A DNA stretch of 32,000 nucleotides from Neisseria lactamica (GTDB taxonomy: Bacteria; Pseudomonadota; Gammaproteobacteria; Burkholderiales; Neisseriaceae): NCBI RefSeq assembly GCF_901482445.1, contig NZ_LR590477.1, positions 1,315,161 to 1,347,160 of the forward strand, read 5' to 3'. Both the position numbers and the translations under genes were made by a program. The notes under the pieces were generated by a model. That model made no database searches, had not been told where the DNA came from, and worked only from the letters and a program-made list of their open reading frames with translations. This document shows, in pieces, positions 5,263-13,071 of the stretch (its first letter is position 1; each line of letters opens with the position of its first letter).

Positions 5263-5300
5263 ATGCCGTCTGAAAGACCGTTCCGCCGTTCAGACGGCAT
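5263..5300. terminator. DUS inverted-repeat hairpin downstream of anmK
   Basis: Arms at 5263..5274 and 5289..5300, followed by a T-run. It is part of a 42-bp sequence repeated exactly at 5825..5866. Confidence 0.6.
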
Positions 5301-5370
5301 TTTTGATACAAAGCAGGTAACTAAAAGGAACGTTTGACGGCAAAGAAGAAACTAAAATAAAGGATTACAC

Positions 5371-5817
5371 TTGGCATCATCAAGATACCGGATGTATCGG
5401 CTGGAAAGCGATGAACACAAGAAGATAATTATGTGGAAAATTTATAAAGAAAATAGCACCGACTTAAATTTTGCCCTAGGCAGTATATATTGCCAAGCAA
5501 TCAATATTACCGAATTTAAAATGTGGGTCGAAAAAATCATAAGGGAAATGGATTTAGATGAAATTCCAAATTATTTTTTTGATTTAACAGATCTTCAATC
5601 ACTATTCCATCTAATTGATATTATAGGATTTGTTCCCGAAAATAACTTATCAAAAAATCAGGATAATGCATTAACAGGCATTGCCTTCTTAAGGGGGATA
5701 GATGTCTATGACCCTCCCGTTTCAAAAGAAAAAGCATTAAAAGCCTTAAAGAAACATCCTGAAATTTATCAGAAGTTTCGACATTTCTTTCCGTTTGTAG
5801 AGCTGCCCCCGCTTTAA
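5371..5817 (+). CDS. AT-rich hypothetical protein, possibly an orphan immunity-type gene; start uncertain (TTG 5371, ATG 5392 or ATG 5431)
   Basis: Open frame of 148 codons in a strongly AT-rich block flanked by identical DUS hairpins. No signal peptide and no family I recognise. Confidence 0.45.
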   Translation: MASSRYRMYRLESDEHKKIIMWKIYKENSTDLNFALGSIYCQAINITEFKMWVEKIIREMDLDEIPNYFFDLTDLQSLFHLIDIIGFVPENNLSKNQDNALTGIAFLRGIDVYDPPVSKEKALKALKKHPEIYQKFRHFFPFVELPPL

Positions 5818-5826
5818 ACAGTCAAA

Positions 5827-5864
5827 ATGCCGTCTGAAAGACCGTTCCGCCGTTCAGACGGCAT
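5827..5864. terminator. DUS inverted-repeat hairpin (second copy of the 5263..5300 hairpin)
   Basis: Arms at 5827..5838 and 5853..5864, with loop sequence identical to the first copy. Confidence 0.55.
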
Positions 5865-5878
5865 TTCCGCCCCTTTTG

Positions 5879-5907
5879 TTTACAAAATCTTAAAATCCCT
5901 TTACACT
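5879..5907 (+). promoter_or_regulatory. Candidate sigma70 promoter for mafA-mafB (TTTACA-17 nt-TACACT)
   Basis: Hexamers at 5879..5884 and 5902..5907 with 17-nt spacing, about 33 nt upstream of the mafA ATG. This is pattern match only. Confidence 0.25.
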
Positions 5908-5939
5908 CAAAATCCGTTCAACATCAAACAAACCCCGCT

Positions 5940-6881
5940 ATGAAAATCCTGCTCCTCCTCATCCCTCTCGTCCTCGCCGCCTGCGGCACACTGACCGGTA
6001 TTCCCGCCCACGGCGGCGGCAAACGCTTTGCCGTCGAACAAGAACTCGTCGCCGCATCGTCCCGCGCCGCCGTCAAAGAAATGGATTTGTCCGCCCTGAA
6101 AGGACGCAAAGCCGCCCTTTACGTCTCCGTTATGGGCGACCAAGGTTCGGGCAACATAAGCGGCGGACGCTACTCTATCGACGCACTGATACGCGGCGGC
6201 TACCACAACAACCCCGACAGCAGCACCCAATACAGCTACCCCGCCTACGACACTACCGCCACCACCAAATCCGACGCGCTCTCCAGCGTAACCACTTCCA
6301 CATCGGTCTTAAACGCCCCCGCCGCCGCCCTGACGAAAAACAACGGGCGCAAAGGCGAACGCTCCGCCGGACTGTCCGTCAACGGTACGGGCGACTACCG
6401 CAACGAAACCCTGCTTGCCAATCCCCGCGACGTTTCCTTCCTGACCAACCTCATTCAAACCGTCTTCTACCTGCGCGGCATCGAGGTCGTACCGCCCGAA
6501 TACGCCGACACCGACGTATTCGTAACCGTCGACGTATTCGGCACCGTCCGCAGCCGTACCGAACTGCACCTCTACAACGCCGAAACCCTTAAAGCCCAAA
6601 CCAAGCTCGAATATTTCGCCGTCGACCGCGACAGCCGGAAACTGCTGATTGCCCCTAAAACCGCCGCCTACGAATCCCAATACCAAGAACAATACGCCCT
6701 CTGGATGGGACCTTACAGCGTCGGCAAAACCGTCAAAGCCTCAGACGGCCTGATGGTCGATTTCTCCGACATCACCCCCTACGGCGACACGACCGCCCAA
6801 AACCGTCCCGACTTCAAACAAAACAACGGTAAAAACCCCGATGTCGGTAACGAAGTCATCCGCCGCCGCAAAGGAGGATAA
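5940..6881 (+). CDS. mafA: MafA lipoprotein (maf locus, adhesin-family A)
   Basis: 313 aa with signal peptide and lipobox [15 protein letters not shown]|G. It sits directly upstream of mafB (3-nt gap), and an AGGAGG inside its 3' end serves mafB. I recognise the sequence as Neisseria MafA. Confidence 0.9.
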
Positions 6882-6884
6882 ACC

Positions 6885-8288
6885 GTGAAACCGCTGCGCA
6901 GACTGACAAACCTCCTTGCCGCCTGCGCCGTAGCGGCGGCCGCACTCATACAGCCCGCCCTCGCCGCAGAATTGGCGCAAGACCCGTTCATTACCGATAA
7001 CGCCCAACGGCAGCACTACGAACCCGGAGGCAAATACCACCTCTTCGGCGACCCGCGCGGCAGCGTCTCCGACCGCACCGGCAAAATCAATATCATCCAA
7101 GACTATACCCACCGGATGGGCAACCTGCTCATCCAACAGGCGGCAATCCAAGGCAATCTTGGTTACACCGTCCGCTTTTCAGGACACGGATACGAAGAAC
7201 ACGCCCCCTTCGACAACCACGCCGCCGACAGCGCAAGCGAAGAACAAGGCAACGTTGACGACGGCTTTACCGTATACCGGCTCAACTGGGAAGGACACGA
7301 ACACCATCCCGCCGATGCCTACGACGGGCCCAAAGGCAGCGACTATCCCGACCCCACGGGCGCAAGGGACGAATACACCTATCACGTCAACGGCACAGCC
7401 CGCAGTATCAAACTCAATCCGACCGACACCCGCAGCATCCGGCAACGCCTGTCCGACAACTACAACAATCTCGGCAGCAATTTCTCCGACCGCGCCGATG
7501 AAGCCAACAAAAAAATGTTCGAGCACAATGCCAAGCTCGACCGCTGGGGCAACAGCATGGAGTTTGTCAACGGTATTGCCGCCGGAGCGCTCAACCCCTT
7601 TATCAGCGCGGGCGAAGCCTTGGGCATAGGCGACATACTGTACGGAACGCGCTATGCCATAGACAAAGCCGCGATGCGCAACATCGCCCCCTTGCCCGCC
7701 GAGGGCAAATTCGCCGTCATCGGCGGCTTGGGCAGCGTGGCGGGCTTTGAAAAGAATACGCGCGAAGCCGTTGACCGGTGGATACAGGAAAACCCCAATG
7801 CCGCCGAAACCGTCGAAGCCGTCTTCAACGTTGCCGCCGCCGCCAAAGCCGCGAAGTTGGCAAAGGCGGCAAAACCGGGGAAAGCTGCGGTTAGCGGGGA
7901 TTTTGCTGATTCTTATAAAAAGAAATTGGCTTTGTCTGATAGTGCGAGACAGTTATATCAAAATGCAAAGTATAGAGAAGCTCTAGATATACATTATGAA
8001 GATTTAATTAGAAGAAAAACTGGTGGTTCATCAAAATTTATTAACGGTAGAGAAATTGACGCTGTCACGAATGATGCTTTAATACAAGCCAAAAGAACAA
8101 TTTCAGCAATAGATAAACCTAAAAATTTCTTAAATCAAAAAAATAGAAAGCAAATTAAAGCAACCATCGAAGCAGCAAACCAACAGGGAAAACGTGCAGA
8201 ATTTTGGTTTAAATACGGTGTTCATTCACAAGTTAAGTCATATATTGAATCAAAAGGCGGCATTGTTAAAACAGGTTTAGGAGATTAA
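6885..8288 (+). CDS. mafB: MafB polymorphic toxin, class 1 (VSGDF motif), with an AT-rich C-terminal toxin domain
   Basis: GTG start 6 nt after the AGGAGG-containing stretch. Sec signal peptide MKPLRRLTNLLAACAVAAAALIQPALA|AE. GC-rich conserved N-terminal region ends in KAAKLAKAAKPGKAAVSGDF (VSGDF codons at 7890..7904). About 127 aa of AT-rich variable C-terminus follow. Confidence 0.9.
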   Translation: MKPLRRLTNLLAACAVAAAALIQPALAAELAQDPFITDNAQRQHYEPGGKYHLFGDPRGSVSDRTGKINIIQDYTHRMGNLLIQQAAIQGNLGYTVRFSGHGYEEHAPFDNHAADSASEEQGNVDDGFTVYRLNWEGHEHHPADAYDGPKGSDYPDPTGARDEYTYHVNGTARSIKLNPTDTRSIRQRLSDNYNNLGSNFSDRADEANKKMFEHNAKLDRWGNSMEFVNGIAAGALNPFISAGEALGIGDILYGTRYAIDKAAMRNIAPLPAEGKFAVIGGLGSVAGFEKNTREAVDRWIQENPNAAETVEAVFNVAAAAKAAKLAKAAKPGKAAVSGDFADSYKKKLALSDSARQLYQNAKYREALDIHYEDLIRRKTGGSSKFINGREIDAVTNDALIQAKRTISAIDKPKNFLNQKNRKQIKATIEAANQQGKRAEFWFKYGVHSQVKSYIESKGGIVKTGLGD

Positions 8289-8290
8289 AC

Positions 8291-8650
8291 ATGGCATCAT
8301 ATGTTTCCATAAAAGGATGGATTGAATGCTCTGACGATGATATAAAAATCATCCAAGAAAACATTAATAATTTTTGGAATAATTGTCCCTTTAATATCGA
8401 AGAGAAAGAATCTGCAAAAATATATAAAAGCGGGTGGGTTTTCCCGACAAATAGTTTTAATTGGAGCAGCTATATTTTTTTTGGTGCATGCGTAAAATCT
8501 TATTTCATGATTTATTTTGAAAAATGTATTAAAACAATAATGGAATTGGATATTGAAATATCAGGTTTTTTTGAATTAGATTATTATGAAGATGGTTATA
8601 AAGTAAATTGGAAAATAAATAATGGCAATTTAATACAAACAACTGATTAA
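8291..8650 (+). CDS. mafI: Putative cognate immunity protein of the expressed MafB toxin (MafI)
   Basis: 119-aa cytoplasmic-looking protein starting 2 nt after the mafB stop, preceded by AGGAG. Very AT-rich: I counted 13/60 G+C in 8341..8400. Confidence 0.7.
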   Translation: MASYVSIKGWIECSDDDIKIIQENINNFWNNCPFNIEEKESAKIYKSGWVFPTNSFNWSSYIFFGACVKSYFMIYFEKCIKTIMELDIEISGFFELDYYEDGYKVNWKINNGNLIQTTD

Positions 8651-8796
8651 ATGGACAAATATAAGTTAGATTGGACACCTAAACCTAGAAATTGCCTGAA
8701 ACTCAATTTGGTTTTCAGACAACCTTTTCCCGTATCGGCAGACTATGAATTTACAGCTATCGGGAAATTGAGGATAGAGAAAATTCCATACGCTAA

Positions 8797-9339
8797 GCCG
8801 TTGACCGGTGGATACGGGAAAATCCCAATGCCGCCGAAACCATCGAAGCCCTGGCCAACGTCCTGCCGTTTGCCAAAGTCAAAAACCTGACAAAGGCGGC
8901 AAAAGTAGCCAAAGCCGCGAAGTTGGCAAAGGCGGCAAAACCGGGGAAGGCGAAGGTCAGCGGGGATTTTGCTGTTGCCACACAAGCCAAATACAAGCAA
9001 TATGGGGATGCGCATTCTGCCAATGCCCAATCGGCATTAGCTAAGAAATTGTCAGGTTTGGAAGATGCTCAAAATAGTGCGTCTAGGACAAAAACTTTAC
9101 CTGATGGGAGAATCAGGTATTATGAAGCTGAGCGATTTGCTAGAACCGAGGGAAGAACGAGGGGTAATAGCTTTGTTACAGAATATAATCCTAAAACAGG
9201 CAGTACCCGACAATGGACGGAAAATTATGACCATAGCGGGAACGTAACTATGGTTCATCCTAAATCAATTAACGGACAAAGTGTAACCTCTCAGCATTAT
9301 CCACCAACAAAACAGGAATTAGATTCATGGAAAAAATAA
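8797..9339 (+). CDS. Silent/orphan mafB C-terminal cassette 1 (5'-truncated mafB module with an alternative toxin tip)
   Basis: The frame opens right after a TAA (8794..8796) and encodes AVDRWIRENPNAAETIEAL...KAAKLAKAAKPGKAKVSGDF, homologous to MafB residues encoded at 7767..7904. A different C-terminal domain follows (...GRIRYYEAERFARTEGRTRGNSFVTEYNPKTGSTRQWTENYDHSGNVTMVHPK...). No ATG or RBS. The track's TTG start at 8923 lies inside the Lys/Ala linker. Confidence 0.75.
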   Translation, partial: AVDRWIRENPNAAETIEALANVLPFAKVKNLTKAAKVAKAAKLAKAAKPGKAKVSGDFAVATQAKYKQYGDAHSANAQSALAKKLSGLEDAQNSASRTKTLPDGRIRYYEAERFARTEGRTRGNSFVTEYNPKTGSTRQWTENYDHSGNVTMVHPKSINGQSVTSQHYPPTKQELDSWKK

Positions 9340-9557
9340 CTCAACAATACGCATATTCTGAACTGCTCAGATTGTTCAATCAAAACGCTTCGGATGAAAA
9401 AATTGCGAATCTTGCTTTTGATTTTCTGTATGCTTGGTCAAAAGATAATTCTCCAGAATCGCGTAATATAATCTATGATTTAGCACTTATCGGTGAACCG
9501 GGTATGGAACTGACCCGTAATGACATAAAAGAATTGATTGACAGTTTAGTTGAGTAA
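9327..9557 (+). CDS. Putative immunity protein for orphan cassette 1 (MafI-like, 76 aa)
   Basis: Its ATG is embedded in the last codons of the cassette (13-nt overlap: gat tcATGg aaa aaa taa). Small acidic protein, AT-rich. Confidence 0.6.
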   Translation: MEKITQQYAYSELLRLFNQNASDEKIANLAFDFLYAWSKDNSPESRNIIYDLALIGEPGMELTRNDIKELIDSLVE

Positions 9558-9589
9558 GTATAGGTTAGGCTGAAAATCCCACAATCAAA

Positions 9590-9601
9590 AGGTCGTCTGA
9601 A
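9590..9601 (+). repeat. Non-canonical DNA uptake sequence AGGTCGTCTGAA (matches the mucosa-type DUS dialect as I recall it)
   Basis: Exact 12-mer AGGTCGTCTGAA. It is the left arm of a degenerate hairpin (AAAGGTCGT 9588..9596 pairs with ACGACCTTT 9620..9628). Confidence 0.6.
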
Positions 9602-9659
9602 ACTGCTTTTAATTTCCAAACGACCTTTCCTTCATTTGAAACAGGATATTGAGAACTAA

Positions 9660-10331
9660 GTTCTTCAAAAATCCTACACCTGCTCCTTCCACGGCAGCAC
9701 CTTGGTCAAAACGGCAGACGGCTACAAAGCTATTGCCCGTATCTAGGTCGGAGACCGCGTCTTTGCCAAGGACGAGGCAAGCGGGGAAACAGGATACAAA
9801 CCCGTTACCGCCCAATACGGCAATCCGTATCGGGAAACCGTTTACATTGAAGTTTCAGACGGCATCGGCAACAGCCAAACCCTGATTTCCAACCGCATCC
9901 ATCCGTTTTATTCGGACGGCAAATGGATTAAGGCGGAAGACTTAAAGGCGGGAATCAGGCTGTTATCCGAAAGCGGTGCAGAGCAGGCCGTTCAAAGCGT
10001 TACCGTTAAACCAAAACCGCTCAAAGCCTACAATCTGACCGTTGCCGACTGGCATACTTACTTCGTCAAGGGCAATCAGGCGGAGACGGAAGGGGTTTGG
10101 GTTCATAATTCTTGTCCGCCCAAAAGAACAGGAAGCTCCAAGAATGAAAAACATGGAGACGGCGGTCGAAGTCAAATATCAGCGGAATCAAAAATTACTG
10201 AATTAACAAATAAAATTATTCCCGGAATGTCCAAAAATGAACGCTTAAAGATTAAGCAAAAAATCAAAAATATTGCCAAAAATGCCAATCGAAAAACAAA
10301 AGGAGAAGAGCATGGTCGACGCGGTCGTTAA
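9660..10331 (+). pseudogene. Start-less Hint/bacterial-intein-like (BIL) pretoxin module plus short basic C-terminal toxin tip, interrupted by an in-frame TAG (9744..9746)
   Basis: Not in the ORF track. My translation in the frame with codon starts divisible by 3: VLQKSYTCSFHGSTLVKTADGYKAIARI*VGDRVFAKDEASGETGYKPVTAQYGNPYRETVYIEVSDGIGNSQTLISNRIHPFYSDGKWIKAEDLKAGIRLLSESGAEQAVQSVTVKPKPLKAYNLTVADWHTYFVKGNQAETEGVWVHNSCPPKRTGSSKNEKHGDGGRSQISAESKITELTNKIIPGMSKNERLKIKQKIKNIAKNANRKTKGEEHGRRGR*. It shows the Hint N-terminal Cys (CSFHGSTLV), the block TVADWHTYFV and the terminal VHN-S/C. Confidence 0.75.
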
Positions 10332-10767
10332 AACTCCCGAATTTTTACCTTTTACTTCTGTAGGAATATTCCGTTTTGGTGCGGATATAACACAGTACAA
10401 AAACATACTGGAAACTTTTATGTATGAACCTCCTGATGAGTTTGGAACAGAATATTATGAATCTCCCGACTCAAATTTACTCATTTCCGTCAAAAAAAAC
10501 AAAATTATTTCGATATTTTGTTATCAGGAGCTATATTTTATGGGCGTTAATATAATAGGTCTGAATTTTGAAGATTTTAAACAGCTTTTCCATCACCCTA
10601 AATCATACGGTGTTGATAAATATTATTTATCAAATGAATCTTATCCGACATATGTCTATGAGTTTGATGAAATAGGAGTACAAGCTTGGGAAGCAAAAGG
10701 GAAAATTGTTACTATCATTGCCGGGGGCAAAGACAATTATTCGACAGAACCTTACTACGATGAATAA
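10312..10767 (+). CDS. Putative immunity protein for the Hint-toxin cassette (151 aa)
   Basis: ATG at 10312 is preceded by AGGAG (10301..10305) and overlaps the cassette 3' end by 20 nt. AT-rich, no signal peptide. The track starts it at TTG 10273. Confidence 0.55.
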   Translation: MVDAVVKTPEFLPFTSVGIFRFGADITQYKNILETFMYEPPDEFGTEYYESPDSNLLISVKKNKIISIFCYQELYFMGVNIIGLNFEDFKQLFHHPKSYGVDKYYLSNESYPTYVYEFDEIGVQAWEAKGKIVTIIAGGKDNYSTEPYYDE

Positions 10768-10835
10768 CATTACAGAAAAGAAACAAGAAACGGTACATTT
10801 GATAAAAACCTAAATCGTATTGGAGATTAATTATT

Positions 10836-11213
10836 ATGTGTGAGTTCAAGGATTTTAGAAGAAACATCCCTTGTTTTGAAGAGTATGACGAAAATTCATT
10901 TATTGGCAAATGGTATGATGACGGGGTGTGGGATGATGAAGAATATTGGAAGTTGGAGAATGATTTAATCGAGGTTAGGAGAAAATATCCTTATCCGATG
11001 GATATACCAAGGGATATTGTGATTGGAATCGGTACCATTATTGATTTTTTAATGGTTCCAAATTGGGAGCTTTTTGAAATTAAAGCTTCCCCTTGGTTGC
11101 CTGATAGTGTGGGAATTCATGAACGTTATGAAAGATTCACAACGATGCTCCGTTATATTTTTACCGAGATAGACATAGTCAACGTGCGATTTGATTATTA
11201 CAACAAAAAATAG
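10836..11213 (+). CDS. AT-rich hypothetical protein, orphan immunity-like (125 aa)
   Basis: Clean ORF in an AT-rich block with GGAG upstream. Acidic and Trp/Tyr-rich, no signal peptide, no toxin gene directly upstream. Confidence 0.5.
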   Translation: MCEFKDFRRNIPCFEEYDENSFIGKWYDDGVWDDEEYWKLENDLIEVRRKYPYPMDIPRDIVIGIGTIIDFLMVPNWELFEIKASPWLPDSVGIHERYERFTTMLRYIFTEIDIVNVRFDYYNKK

Positions 11214-11270
11214 CAAAACCCGGCAATCAAAGCTCGTCTGATATAATCGATATATCCTTTTAAACGAAAA

Positions 11271-12410
11271 ATGAATATGTTTAAAAAATTCAAACCGGTA
11301 TTGTTGTCATTTTTTGCACTTGTATTTGCCTTTTGGCTGGGGACGGGTATTGCCTATGAGATTAATCCGCGTTGGTTTTTGAGCGATACGGCAACTGAAA
11401 TACCTGAAAATCCGAATGCTTTTGTGGCGAAACTTGCCCGCCTGTTCCGAAATGCCGACAGGGCGGTTGTCATCGTGAAGGAATCGATGAGGACGGAGGA
11501 AAGTCTTGCCGAAACTGCGGATGACGGTCCGTTGCAGTCGGAGAAGGATTATCTTGCGCTCGCTATCCGGCTCAGTCGTTTGAAAGAAAAGGCGAAATGG
11601 TTTCACGTAACGGAGCAGGAACATGGGGAAGAGGTCTGGCTGGATTACTATATCGGCGAGGGCGGTTTGGTTGCGGTTTCGCTTTTGCAACGCTCGCCGG
11701 AAGCGTTTGTTAATGCCGAATATCTGTATCGGAACGATCGTCCGTTTTCTGTAAATGTGTACGGCGGAACGGTTCACGGGGAAAATTATGAAACGACAGG
11801 AGAATATCGGGTTATTTGGCAACCGGACGGTTCGGTATTTGATGCGGCGGGGCGCGGGAAAATCGGGGAGGATGTTTATGAGCATTGCCTCGGGTGTTAT
11901 CAGATGGCCCGGGTATATTTGGCGAAATACCGGGATGTCGCGAATGACGAGCAGAAGGTTTGGGACTTCCGCGAAGAGAGCAACCGGATTGCATCGGACT
12001 CGCGCGATTCTGTGTTTTATCAGAATATGCGGGAATTGATGCCCCGGGGGATGAAGGCAAACAGTCTTGTGGTCGGCTATGATGCGGACGGTCTGCCGCA
12101 GAAAGTCTATTGGAGTTTCGACAATGGGAAAAAACGCCAGAGTTTCGAATATTATTTGAAAAACGGAAATCTTTTTATTGCACAATCTTCGACGGTAGCA
12201 TTGAAAGCGGATGGCGTAACGGCGGATATACAGACCTATCATGCGCAACAGACGTGGTATTTGGATGGCGGGCGGATTATCCGCGAAGAGAAACAGGGGG
12301 ACAAACTGCCTGATTTTCCTTTGAACTTGGAAGATTTGGAAAAAGAGGTGAGCCGTTATGCAGAGGCTGCGGCGAGACGTTCGGGCGGCAGGCGCGACCT
12401 TTCTCACTGA
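11271..12410 (+). CDS. Hypothetical membrane-anchored protein (379 aa) of normal Neisseria GC content embedded in the island
   Basis: N-terminal hydrophobic segment KPVLLSFFALVFAFWLGTGIAY, and coding-like composition. It is followed by a canonical DUS hairpin. No family recognised. Confidence 0.65.
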   Translation: MNMFKKFKPVLLSFFALVFAFWLGTGIAYEINPRWFLSDTATEIPENPNAFVAKLARLFRNADRAVVIVKESMRTEESLAETADDGPLQSEKDYLALAIRLSRLKEKAKWFHVTEQEHGEEVWLDYYIGEGGLVAVSLLQRSPEAFVNAEYLYRNDRPFSVNVYGGTVHGENYETTGEYRVIWQPDGSVFDAAGRGKIGEDVYEHCLGCYQMARVYLAKYRDVANDEQKVWDFREESNRIASDSRDSVFYQNMRELMPRGMKANSLVVGYDADGLPQKVYWSFDNGKKRQSFEYYLKNGNLFIAQSSTVALKADGVTADIQTYHAQQTWYLDGGRIIREEKQGDKLPDFPLNLEDLEKEVSRYAEAAARRSGGRRDLSH

Positions 12411-12416
12411 ACGCAA

Positions 12417-12447
12417 ATGCCGTCTGAAACCGGTTTTCAGACGGCAT
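12417..12447. terminator. DUS inverted-repeat hairpin downstream of the 379-aa gene
   Basis: Arms at 12417..12428 and 12436..12447. Confidence 0.5.
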
Positions 12448-12616
12448 TGGAGAGTCAGACGCTTTTTGCAATGCCGTATATGCCGAATCCGATTCGCAAC
12501 AAATTGAAAACCACAATCCAAAAAACGGAAATACACATTAAATAACTTAAATATTAATTTAAAAGGCAAGCCAACAGAGTTAAAATTTAAATTCCCTGCT
12601 AGATAAGGATGTTTTA

Positions 12617-13071
12617 ATGAATTTAGAGACAGCAGAAAATATTCAATGCGAATTTGAGTATTTAGCATTAGATGGTTATTTTCCAATGCATTTTGCATCG
12701 CATGGTCAAGGAAACAAAGATTGGCAATTTGCAGTTGAATTCATATATAGATTATTAATATGTCAATTAGCAACTCTTGAACCTATCAACTTTGAAACGA
12801 AAAATGATATTTTAGACTTTTGCCATAATTTAGCAAAACAAAGTCCTTTTAATAATGATAATGAGGTGTGGTATCAGGGGGAAATTGTATTAACAAAAAA
12901 GGGATAGATTTAATAAAGGAATATATTCCAGAGGCGTTTGAAGAGTGGAATGGAAAGAAATTTGAATTAAACATTCCTTTCATTAAAACATTAAAAAATA
13001 TATTTGTTAATTATGAGGTAGCATGGGATGAGAATAATCCACTATTCCCCATTATATCTTTTAAATATTGA
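12617..13071 (+). pseudogene. AT-rich immunity-like gene split by a frameshift at an A6G3 tract (12895..12903)
   Basis: Track ORFs 12617..12907 and 12868..13071 read ...GEIVLTKKG* and ...NKKGIDLIKEY... across the same homopolymer. One added base would fuse them into a single protein of about 150 aa. AAGGA lies upstream of ATG 12617. Confidence 0.55.

What the first reader, a model, noticed from the sequence alone, without database searches (positions are those of the whole stretch)
9660..10331. Hidden Hint/bacterial-intein-like pretoxin cassette, invisible to the ORF track and carrying a nonsense codon
A frame of about 220 codons, open except for one TAG at 9744..9746, encodes a complete Hint-type autoprocessing domain. 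Its features are the N-terminal nucleophile Cys in YTC|SFHGSTLV (Cys codon 9681..9683), the block NLTVADWHTYFV, and the terminal VWVHN|SC. A short toxin tip follows. The frame has no usable start codon: it opens at 9660 just after a TAA, and the first ATG/GTG/TTG after the TAG is at 10227. It therefore does not appear in the ORF list. Unlike cassette 1, it lacks the VSGDF-region handle, so it may derive from, or be destined for, a different carrier toxin. As I recall, BIL domains have been reported in Neisseria variable secreted proteins, where they would self-cleave to release the tip. The TAG sits where Hint domains usually have a charged residue before VGD. That is consistent with a single-base change such as GAG to TAG.
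Basis: partly seen in the sequence, partly recalled or inferred. Interest (0 to 1): 0.75.

Follow-up and report, generated by a model that had tools for sequence, protein, structure and literature searches.

The report
Silent MafB toxin-tip cassette, with stop
This is a spare, unexpressed 3' end for the Neisseria MafB toxin: a self-cleaving Hint domain, a small toxin tip and an immunity gene, of a type described in 2015, which in this Neisseria lactamica strain carries one strain-specific stop codon.

Summary
Frame 9660..10331 is open except for TAG 9744-9746 and encodes a full-length PT-HINT domain (PF07591, 137/137 positions, E=2.6e-73) with Cys1, block-B His and terminal His-Asn, followed by a 73-aa tip.

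The window is maf genomic island 1 of Neisseria lactamica: anmK, mafA, mafB, mafI, then cassettes. The finding is a class-1 "mafB-CT" alternative C-terminus cassette. Jamet et al. 2015 and Arenas et al. [quoted passage not shown]

- The same cassette is intact in 9 of 9 gonococcal loci and in N. polysaccharea, N. viridiae, N. uirgultaei and metagenomic Neisseria.
- All cassette copies share the same non-coding leader and the same upstream stop.
- In N. oralis the same Hint, tip and immunity gene form the 3' end of a full-length 558-aa MafB, directly after VSGDF.
- The closest orthologues read TGG (Trp) at the TAG position; other copies read Gln or Arg, never Glu.
- Hint dN/dS is about 0.23, and the window copy is a recombinant mosaic.

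The tip has no Pfam, PDB or literature match. It belongs to a cross-phylum C-terminal toxin family found on RHS, eCIS and MafB carriers, and it keeps a conserved downstream immunity gene. That is the only mildly new element.

The parts
5940..6881 (+). mafA, a lipoprotein gene and the first gene of the maf island
   Evidence: 313 aa. The identically placed gene in L002 and L054 carries PF26521 MAFA_adhesin. It lies directly upstream of mafB.
6885..8288 (+). Resident expressed class-1 mafB. It has the MafB N-domain, the VSGDF motif and a Tox-REase-3 tip, and no Hint domain.
   Evidence: PF06255 E=3.6e-160 and PF15647 E=9.2e-50. The exact protein is WP_036475178.1 of N. lactamica. No Hint repeat occurs anywhere in 5300-13000.
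8791..9557 (+). Cassette 1, with a VSGDF-region handle at 8791-8974 repeating mafB 7761-7908, a tip ORF at 8923-9339, and its mafI at 9327-9557
   Evidence: Direct repeats D2 and D3 at 89-93% identity. The translation reads KAAKPGKAKVSGDF.
9626..9668 (+). Conserved non-coding cassette leader ending in the in-frame stop TAA 9657-9659
   Evidence: The leader is the same (translating as D-I-E/G-N-*-V-L/F-Q) in front of every Hint cassette, whatever its tip. Full-length genes read VSGDFS there instead.
9669..10109 (+). A-type BIL / PT-HINT domain, with Cys1 at 9681-9683, block-B His in SNRIHPF, NLTVADWHTYFV, and His-Asn at 10104-10109
   Evidence: PF07591 137/137 positions, E=2.6e-73. 2LWY E=6.8e-12. 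The catalytic residues are invariant in 18 aligned copies. dN/dS is about 0.23.
9702..9704 (+). In-frame TTG (Leu15), used by annotators as the start codon of the intact 209-aa cassette ORFs
   Evidence: Jamet 2015 (PMC4287609) states that the TTG start leaves the BIL short of its first 7 residues.
9744..9746 (+). Strain-specific nonsense codon TAG, derived from TGG (Trp)
   Evidence: The orthologous cassettes L002, L005, L006 and L007 read TGG in otherwise identical surroundings. Other copies have Gln or Arg.
9854..9865 (-). 12-nt AT-type DNA uptake sequence (ATGCCGTCTGAA) embedded in the Hint coding sequence for VSDGIG
   Evidence: The 12-mer is kept in 27 of 30 intact Hint copies and the 10-mer in 30 of 30.
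10110..10331 (+). 73-aa toxin tip plus stop, with motifs NEKHGDGGR and KGEEHGR flanking a helical hairpin
   Evidence: No Pfam hit. 163 representative clusters at E<1e-3, always C-terminal, on RHS, DUF6443, eCIS-core and MafB carriers. AF2 pLDDT 81.
10312..10767 (+). Cognate immunity gene mafI (151 aa). Its ATG overlaps the tip by 20 nt and follows a Shine-Dalgarno AAGGAG at 10300-10305.
   Evidence: The exact protein is widespread in gonococcal genomes, always just after this cassette. Homologues lie directly downstream of tip homologues in at least 17 of 19 loci from several phyla.
10836..11213 (+). Orphan Imm41 immunity gene that travels with the module
   Evidence: PF15592 E=1.8e-71. It is part of the roughly 1.67-kb block 9573-11241 that is shared at about 95% identity with gonococcal MGI-5 and other MGI-1 loci.

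Best explanation
The region is a promoter-less, start-less alternative 3' end ('mafB-CT' cassette) for the class-1 MafB polymorphic toxin. It lies in maf genomic island 1 of Neisseria lactamica.

It has four parts:
- a conserved non-coding leader that ends in a stop;
- a complete A-type bacterial intein-like (PT-HINT) domain;
- a 73-aa basic helical-hairpin toxin tip;
- a translationally overlapping cognate immunity gene, mafI.

Shown: when the same Hint-tip-mafI unit sits after the VSGDF motif of a full-length mafB, it is the 3' end of a normal toxin gene.

Inferred mechanism:
1. The cassette is a reservoir. Homologous recombination uses the roughly 440-bp conserved Hint sequence as the 5' arm, either within a genome or after DUS-mediated DNA uptake. 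This swaps the cassette's tip and immunity gene into an expressed Hint-bearing mafB.
2. The chimeric toxin is exported by Sec and MafA. The Hint domain then releases the tip by Asn cyclisation at HN|S.
3. The immunity gene can meanwhile protect the cell against neighbours that express this tip.

In this strain a single G-to-A change (TGG to TAG) has closed the Hint frame at codon 29. The resident mafB of the island has also lost its Hint domain, so the cassette has no partner in this island.

The stop would not matter for crossovers downstream of it. 363 of the 441 homologous bases lie 3' of the TAG.
For: Identity:
- PF07591 matches full length, E=2.6e-73, and the BIL structure 2LWY is the best PDB relative.

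Context:
- The PHO4, anmK, 148-aa ORF, mafA, mafB, mafI order matches MGI-1 as defined in PMC4287609.
- The organism is N. lactamica.

Cassette nature:
- Homology to full-length mafB starts exactly after VSGDF-S.
- The same leader and stop precede all 26 intact and 5 disrupted distinct cassette copies found, whatever their tip. The 4 remaining distinct copies comprise 2 full-length genes that read VSGDFS instead, plus the window copy and its duplicate L054.

Parent gene:
- In N. oralis, L011:2987-4663 encodes a 558-aa MafB with signal peptide, DUF1020, VSGDF, Hint and this tip, followed by the same mafI.
- Sister MGI-1 loci have a Hint-bearing 583-aa resident mafB about 500 bp upstream of this cassette.

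Selection and recombination:
- The frame is intact in 9 of 9 gonococcal copies and in 3 other species.
- dN/dS is about 0.23 in the Hint part.
- The window copy is a mosaic. Its Hint resembles L002 (7 mismatches in 408 nt) and its tip resembles gonococcus (4 mismatches in 306 nt), with a breakpoint near 10025-10076.
- The same tip is joined to different Hint variants, and the same Hint variants to different tips.

TAG:
- TGG is present in the four closest orthologues aligned, L002, L005, L006 and L007.

Toxin and immunity:
- The tip-mafI linkage is conserved across phyla.

Literature:
- PMC4287609 and PMC4524018 describe BIL-initiated class-1 mafB-CTs and cassette/full-length identities.
- PMC7738311 shows MafA-dependent secretion of a Hint-bearing MafB.
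Against: - No recombination event has been observed for this cassette in this strain.
- The window holds no second Hint copy to recombine with, and I could not inspect the rest of the genome.
- No promoter-like site stands out near the cassette or mafI. There were 11 sites against 10.1 expected by chance. Expression of mafI is therefore inferred only from its Shine-Dalgarno sequence and its conservation.
- Some Hint cassettes elsewhere are truncated or disrupted (5 of the 35 distinct copies), so decay does occur.
- Autocleavage of this Hint domain and toxicity of the tip are untested.
Confidence: 0.85

Rival explanations
1. In this particular strain the cassette is a dead remnant. With a nonsense codon and no Hint-bearing mafB in its island, only the linked immunity genes (mafI, Imm41) are still useful, and the Hint-tip DNA is decaying.
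For: - TAG at codon 29.
- No second Hint copy in 5300-13000.
- The resident mafB has a Hint-less Tox-REase-3 tip.
- Truncated or disrupted Hint cassettes exist in other genomes (L047:1527, L047:2843, L015:4070, L002:7610).
Against: - There is only one lesion.
- The rest of the copy differs from its closest intact orthologue by 7 bases over the Hint part.
- All catalytic residues are retained.
- 82% of the Hint homology lies downstream of the stop, so the tip remains recoverable by recombination or by transformation into another strain.
- The embedded DUS is intact.
Confidence: 0.3
2. Hint cassettes are free-standing genes translated from the in-frame TTG (9702) into a cytoplasmic Hint-toxin protein. 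The TAG is then a true knockout of an expressed gene.
For: Jamet et al. call these cassettes 'potentially translated' because of the TTG (PMC4287609). Annotation pipelines-aa proteins from it.
Against: - The TTG is simply the Leu of the conserved block-A motif GSTLV.
- The reading frame is conserved for 11 further codons upstream of the TTG, including Cys1. It ends at a conserved stop in every copy.
- No Shine-Dalgarno-like sequence precedes the TTG.
- The product would lack a signal peptide, the MafB N-domain and the nucleophile Cys.
Confidence: 0.1
3. The TAG is a sequencing or assembly error, and the cassette is intact in the living strain.
For: It is a single-base difference from TGG in the nearest orthologues. 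It was not found in any other record I could read.
Against: The public assembly GCA_000741965.1 (L054) is base-for-base identical over 9.4 kb, including the TAG. It may, however, be the same assembly as the window. A G-to-A transition in unexpressed DNA is unremarkable.
Confidence: 0.07
4. It is a true intein, or a cassette for the two-partner-secretion toxin TpsA/CdiA, rather than for MafB.
For: There is a weak hit to the intein C-terminal motif TIGR01443 (E=0.006). Hint domains also occur in T5SS toxins (PMC3482391).
Against: - The +1 residue after His-Asn varies (S, A, D, E).
- There is no homing endonuclease and no conserved host protein on both sides.
- The cassette sits in a maf island.
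- It matches MafB genes base for base from the residue after VSGDFS onward.
Confidence: 0.02

Closest known systems
Class-1 mafB-CT alternative C-terminus cassettes with an A-type BIL domain, in maf genomic islands MGI-1, MGI-4 and MGI-5 (Jamet et al. 2015, PMC4287609; Arenas et al. 2015, PMC4524018)
   Same: - Same island position.
- It starts with the BIL that follows VSGDF in full-length class-1 MafB.
- It has no homology to the MafB N-domain.
- It has the in-frame TTG 7 residues into the BIL.
- It is followed by a cognate mafI.
- An identical tip is present in a full-length mafB of another strain.
   Different: This copy carries a nonsense codon. Its island's resident mafB has no Hint domain. 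The tip belongs to no named toxin family.
A-type bacterial intein-like domains / Pfam PT-HINT (Amitai et al. 2003 as cited in PMC4524018; PDB 2LWY)
   Same: It has Cys1, block-B His, the NLTV..HTYFV block and terminal His-Asn. The +1 residue is variable and is not a conserved nucleophile, so cleavage rather than splicing is expected.
   Different: Activity of the Neisseria MafB Hint has not been shown for this sequence. An invariant Cys-Pro follows the +1 position.
Orphan CdiA-CT/CdiI and Rhs-CT/RhsI modules, and the tpsA cassettes of N. meningitidis
   Same: These are promoter-less 3' toxin fragments with their immunity genes, stored downstream of the expressed gene. They are exchanged through a conserved pretoxin segment (VENN, PxxxxDPxGL or Hint).
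   Different: Here the homology arm is a whole autoprocessing domain of about 440 bp. The carrier is the Neisseria-specific MafB/MafA secretion pair.
pilS silent cassettes of pathogenic Neisseria
   Same: These are start-less partial gene copies kept as donors for gene conversion of an expression locus, in a naturally transformable genus.
   Different: pilS serves antigenic variation of pilin. No G4 or RecA-dependent initiating element is known or seen here. The maf cassettes bring an immunity gene with them.

Membership tests
PT-HINT (PF07591) / A-type bacterial intein-like domain | Profile match above the curated threshold over the whole model | tested here: met
   245.2 bits against a cut-off of 27.7, profile positions 1-137 of 137.
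PT-HINT (PF07591) / A-type bacterial intein-like domain | N-terminal nucleophile Cys1 in block A (C-x-x-x-G-S/T-x-V) | tested here: met
   CSFHGSTLV with the Cys codon at 9681-9683. The Cys is present in every copy that extends that far.
PT-HINT (PF07591) / A-type bacterial intein-like domain | Block-B His and C-terminal His-Asn | tested here: met
   H81 (SNRIHPF), H149 and N150 are invariant in 18 aligned sequences.
PT-HINT (PF07591) / A-type bacterial intein-like domain | No conserved +1 nucleophile, so the domain cleaves rather than splices | tested here: met
   The +1 residue is S, A, D or E in different copies. The definition of this feature comes from established knowledge (Dassa et al. 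2004, cited as ref 13 in PMC7738311).
PT-HINT (PF07591) / A-type bacterial intein-like domain | Uninterrupted reading frame | tested here: not met
   TAG at 9744-9746. This copy encodes the domain but cannot produce it as it stands.
PT-HINT (PF07591) / A-type bacterial intein-like domain | Autocatalytic cleavage | not testable with these tools
   This needs a repaired fusion protein with C1A and N143A controls.
Class-1 mafB-CT cassette of a maf genomic island | Lies downstream of mafA-mafB-mafI in an MGI | tested here: met
   Gene order anmK, mafA, mafB, mafI, cassettes. This is MGI-1 by the flanking anmK (PMC4287609).
Class-1 mafB-CT cassette of a maf genomic island | Lacks the MafB N-domain, and its 5' part equals the segment next to the toxin domain of a full-length mafB | tested here: met
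   Homology begins at the codon after VSGDFS.
Class-1 mafB-CT cassette of a maf genomic island | The same C-terminal region occurs in a full-length mafB elsewhere | tested here: met
   558-aa MafB in N. oralis EXNM717, L011:2987-4663.
Class-1 mafB-CT cassette of a maf genomic island | Followed by a cognate immunity gene | tested here: met
   mafI at 10312-10767. Its linkage to the tip is conserved in Neisseria and across phyla. Neutralisation itself was not tested.
Canonical intein | Conserved +1 Cys/Ser/Thr, insertion in a conserved host protein, extein ligation | tested here: not met
   The +1 residue is variable and the downstream 'extein' is a polymorphic toxin tip.
Named toxin domain families (Pfam Tox-*/Ntox*, NCBIfam) | Profile match of the 73-aa tip | tested here: not met
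   No relevant Pfam hit even at E<=10. NCBIfam gave nothing for the tip. The PDB profile search and Foldseek gave nothing.

The most novel reading that the evidence does not exclude
The 73-aa tip (motifs NEKHGDGGR and KGEEH[S/G]R around a helical hairpin) and its 151-aa partner may define a toxin-immunity family that has not been described. The pair is spread across Neisseria, Moraxella, Bacteroidota, cyanobacteria, Acidobacteriota, Ignavibacteriota and Myxococcota. It is delivered by MafB, RHS/DUF6443 and eCIS-type carriers. Its target and chemistry are unknown. The Neisseria Hint cassette would be one vehicle for this family.
Probability: 0.45. Interest if true: 0.4.

Novelty: already known. 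Interest (0 to 1): 0.2.

Why it matters
The finding explains an unannotated stretch of a Neisseria lactamica maf island as an ordinary member of a described system. The system is the repertoire of swappable MafB toxin ends that commensal and pathogenic Neisseria use against each other.

Three points have some practical value.
- Annotation pipelines miss such cassettes once a stop codon appears, and they otherwise mis-start them at an internal Leu codon.
- The cassette, its immunity gene and Imm41 move as a block of about 1.7 kb between species and between islands.
- The tip belongs to an uncharacterised, widely distributed toxin-immunity pair that could be tested cheaply.

Tried and rejected
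- GAG-to-TAG origin: rejected, because the orthologues read TGG.
- Different carrier family (TpsA/CdiA) or true intein: rejected on junction identity with mafB and on the variable +1 residue.
- Naming the tip: nothing came from Pfam at E<=10 or NCBIfam. A PDB profile search and AF2 plus Foldseek against the PDB gave only generic helical hairpins. A full-text search for the motif HGDGGR and the supplements of the 'PT1-PT9' toxin screen also gave no match.
- Terminator upstream of the cassette: a 9-bp stem at 9588-9628 folds no better than shuffles (z=-0.28), and the scan found no terminator there.
- Promoter for the cassette or mafI: counts were at chance level.
- Looking for the TAG or TGG allele in JGI metagenome contigs: no hit for either allele, so this was uninformative.
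- The independent second assembly of the strain could not be fetched. It was collapsed as a 'similar place', so a sequencing error cannot be formally excluded.
- A protein comparison on L052 failed on coordinates and was replaced by reading the ORFs.

Full report
**Observation.**
- TAA 9657-9659 closes the frame, which reopens at 9660.
- The Cys codon is at 9681-9683.
- The only internal stop is TAG 9744-9746.
- His-Asn is at 10104-10109 and is followed by Ser-Cys.
- The frame ends at TAA 10329-10331.

No ORF of 50 aa or more ends at 10331. The next in-frame start after the TAG is therefore ATG 10227. The translation matches Pfam PT-HINT (PF07591) over all 137 profile positions at 245 bits, E=2.6e-73. 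Its best relative with a solved structure is the Clostridium bacterial intein-like domain 2LWY, E=6.8e-12. This is not a chance open frame.

**Context.** The window comes from Neisseria lactamica.
- The resident MafB protein is exactly WP_036475178.1 / KFJ35497.1.
- Assembly GCA_000741965.1 is identical to the window over 9.4 kb, TAG included.
- Thirty-one AT-type DNA uptake sequences in 32 kb fit that species group.

The gene order is a PHO4 transporter, anmK, a 148-aa ORF, mafA (5940-6881), mafB (6885-8288) and mafI (8291-8650). The mafB product has a MafB N-domain, the VSGDF motif and a Tox-REase-3 tip. Two cassettes, each with its immunity gene, follow, and then an Imm41 gene. This is maf genomic island 1 as defined by its anmK flank in Jamet et al. 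2015 (PMC4287609).

**Anatomy of the cassette.**
- A non-coding leader (about 9626-9668) ends in the in-frame TAA.
- From the Lys codon at 9669, the DNA is homologous to full-length class-1 mafB genes. These read ...KAAKPGKAAVSGDFS|KSYTCSFHGSTLVKTADG....
- The Hint domain runs to His-Asn at 10104-10109.
- A 73-aa basic tip follows (10110-10328).
- The immunity gene mafI starts at ATG 10312, behind a Shine-Dalgarno AAGGAG at 10300-10305. It overlaps the tip by 20 nt and ends at 10767.

**Comparative evidence.** Scanning the fetched loci gave 35 distinct Hint copies carrying at least seven different tips.
- Every cassette copy has the same leader, translating as D-I-E/G-N-stop-V-L/F-Q, in front of KSYTC.
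- Only the two full-length genes read VSGDFS at that point.

This particular cassette (Hint, this tip, the 151-aa mafI and Imm41) occurs widely.
- It is intact in 9 of 9 gonococcal loci, where it sits next to relA in MGI-5.
- It is intact in N. polysaccharea, N. viridiae and N. uirgultaei.
- It is intact in metagenomic Neisseria, where it occupies the same MGI-1 position as in the window.
- The whole block 9573-11241 is about 95% identical between these places.

In N. oralis EXNM717, the same Hint, tip and mafI form the 3' end of a complete 558-aa MafB with signal peptide, DUF1020 and VSGDF (L011:2987-4663). In the sister MGI-1 loci, the resident mafB is a 583-aa Hint-bearing form lying about 500 bp upstream of the cassette. 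The window's resident mafB has no Hint, and no second Hint copy occurs in 5300-13000.

**The stop codon.** The closest orthologues aligned (L002, L005, L006, L007) read TGG where the window reads TAG, within otherwise identical surroundings. Other copies have Gln or Arg there, and none has Glu. The lesion is therefore a single G-to-A transition of a Trp codon. So far it has been seen only in this strain.

**Selection and recombination.**
- Pairwise Nei-Gojobori estimates give a median dN/dS of 0.23 for the Hint part and 0.58 for the tip. These start-less copies have therefore evolved under protein-level constraint.
- The window copy is a mosaic. Its Hint differs from L002 by 7 bases in 408 nt, and from gonococcal copies by more than 40.
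- Its tip differs from gonococcal copies by 4 bases in 306 nt, and from L002 by about 16.
- The breakpoint lies near 10025-10076, in the conserved NLTVADWHTYFV block.
- Its mafI product is identical to the gonococcal protein.
- In the protein alignment, the same tip is joined to different Hint variants, and the same Hint variants to different tips.
- An AT-DUS lies on the minus strand inside the Hint coding sequence (9854-9865). It is kept in nearly all intact copies.

**The tip.** No Pfam, NCBIfam, PDB-sequence or Foldseek match was found. No paper in the library contains its motif.

An exhaustive HMMER search nevertheless found 163 representative clusters at E<1e-3, and the match is always at the extreme C-terminus. 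The long members are RHS-repeat, DUF6443, eCIS-core and MafB proteins.

Genome hits come from several groups:
- Moraxella;
- Bacteroidota;
- Holophagae;
- Ignavibacteria;
- cyanobacteria;
- Myxococcota.

In at least 17 of 19 such loci, a homologue of the 151-aa mafI lies immediately downstream. The alignment has an invariant H-G-D and a near-invariant G-E-x-H. AlphaFold gives a helical hairpin, H20-35 and H42-64, with the two motifs brought together, at pLDDT 81. I infer a genuine but unnamed toxin-immunity pair of unknown chemistry.

**Mechanism.**

Shown:
- the domain identity;
- the island context;
- the exact junction with mafB;
- a full-length parent gene;
- conservation of the open frame and catalytic residues;
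- the mosaic structure;
- the conserved toxin-immunity linkage.

Inferred from these results and from the literature:
- The cassette is a silent donor. The roughly 440-bp Hint sequence serves as the 5' homology arm for replacing the tip and immunity gene of an expressed Hint-bearing mafB.
- The resulting toxin is secreted by Sec and MafA. MafA-dependent secretion of a Hint-bearing MafB was shown in PMC7738311.
- The tip is freed by Asn cyclisation at HN|S, by analogy with A-type BILs.
- mafI gives standing protection against the toxin.

In this strain the TAG would be imported only by crossovers in the 75 nt upstream of it. The remaining 363 nt of Hint homology lie downstream. Whether the strain has a Hint-bearing mafB elsewhere in its genome is unknown.

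**Comparison with what is known.** Jamet et al. [quoted passage not shown]
- they have no homology with the conserved N-terminal region;
- they begin at a TTG that leaves the BIL short of its first seven residues;
- the full-length gene upstream may hold a complete BIL.

Arenas et al. 2015 say that mafB-CTs sometimes include an intact Hint domain of type A. Zhang et al. 2012 list HINT among the processing domains of MafB-N toxins. Public annotation already names intact copies 'HINT domain-containing protein', 'pretoxin' or 'putative MafB alternative C-terminus'. The finding is thus a correct rediscovery of a known element. It is made invisible here by one nonsense mutation.

**Verdict.** Three details are wrong:
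- the ancestral codon;
- the 'different carrier';
- the placement of the N-terminal scissile bond.

Novelty: already known. Interest is low (0.2). The only thread worth a follow-up is the unnamed tip-immunity family.

Noticed in passing
window 9854-9865 (minus strand): A 12-nt AT-type DNA uptake sequence is embedded in the Hint coding sequence (VSDGIG). The 12-mer is kept in 27 of 30 intact Hint copies and the 10-mer in all 30. It could favour uptake of cassette DNA between strains and species.
   Followed up: partly
window 10110-10767; loci L024-L043: The 73-aa tip and the 151-aa MafI form a linked pair conserved across several phyla. The pair occurs on RHS, DUF6443, eCIS-core and MafB carriers. 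It has no Pfam, PDB or literature match.
   Followed up: partly
window 7905-8650 versus L052:1850-2643: The Tox-REase-3 tip of the window's resident mafB and its 119-aa mafI occur almost unchanged in gonococcal MGI-5. There they form a start-less VSGDF-type cassette reading ...KAAKPGKAAVSEDFADSYKKKLALSDS... This is a direct example of cassette-to-expression-site exchange between species.
   Followed up: partly
window 10836-11213: An Imm41 immunity gene has no Ntox21 toxin in the window. In gonococcal loci, Ntox21 fragments and duplicated Imm41 genes lie nearby. It always travels with the Hint cassette as the end of a block of about 1.67 kb.
   Followed up: partly
window 10110-10118 and all Hint copies: After His-Asn the +1 residue varies (S, A, D, E), but the next two residues, Cys-Pro, are invariant in all aligned copies whatever the tip. 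Their role is unknown.
   Followed up: no
window 5371-5817; L011:5293-5682: The 148-aa ORF between anmK and mafA has a homologue inside the cassette array of N. oralis, sharing the C-terminal ...ALTGIAFLRGIDVYDPP.SKEKALKALKKHPEIYQ.F.HFFPFVELPPL. It may therefore be an orphan immunity-type gene rather than a flanking gene.
   Followed up: no
PLSDB records NZ_CP119140.1 and NZ_CP119142.1 (L001): Two 2.17-Mb N. gonorrhoeae chromosomes are filed as plasmids in the plasmid collection, with almost no annotation.
   Followed up: no
L021 (Enterobacter sp. RIT637, 543-bp contig, coverage 0.79): A Neisseria-type Hint fragment sits in an Enterobacter assembly on a very low-coverage contig. Contamination is the likely cause.
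   Followed up: no
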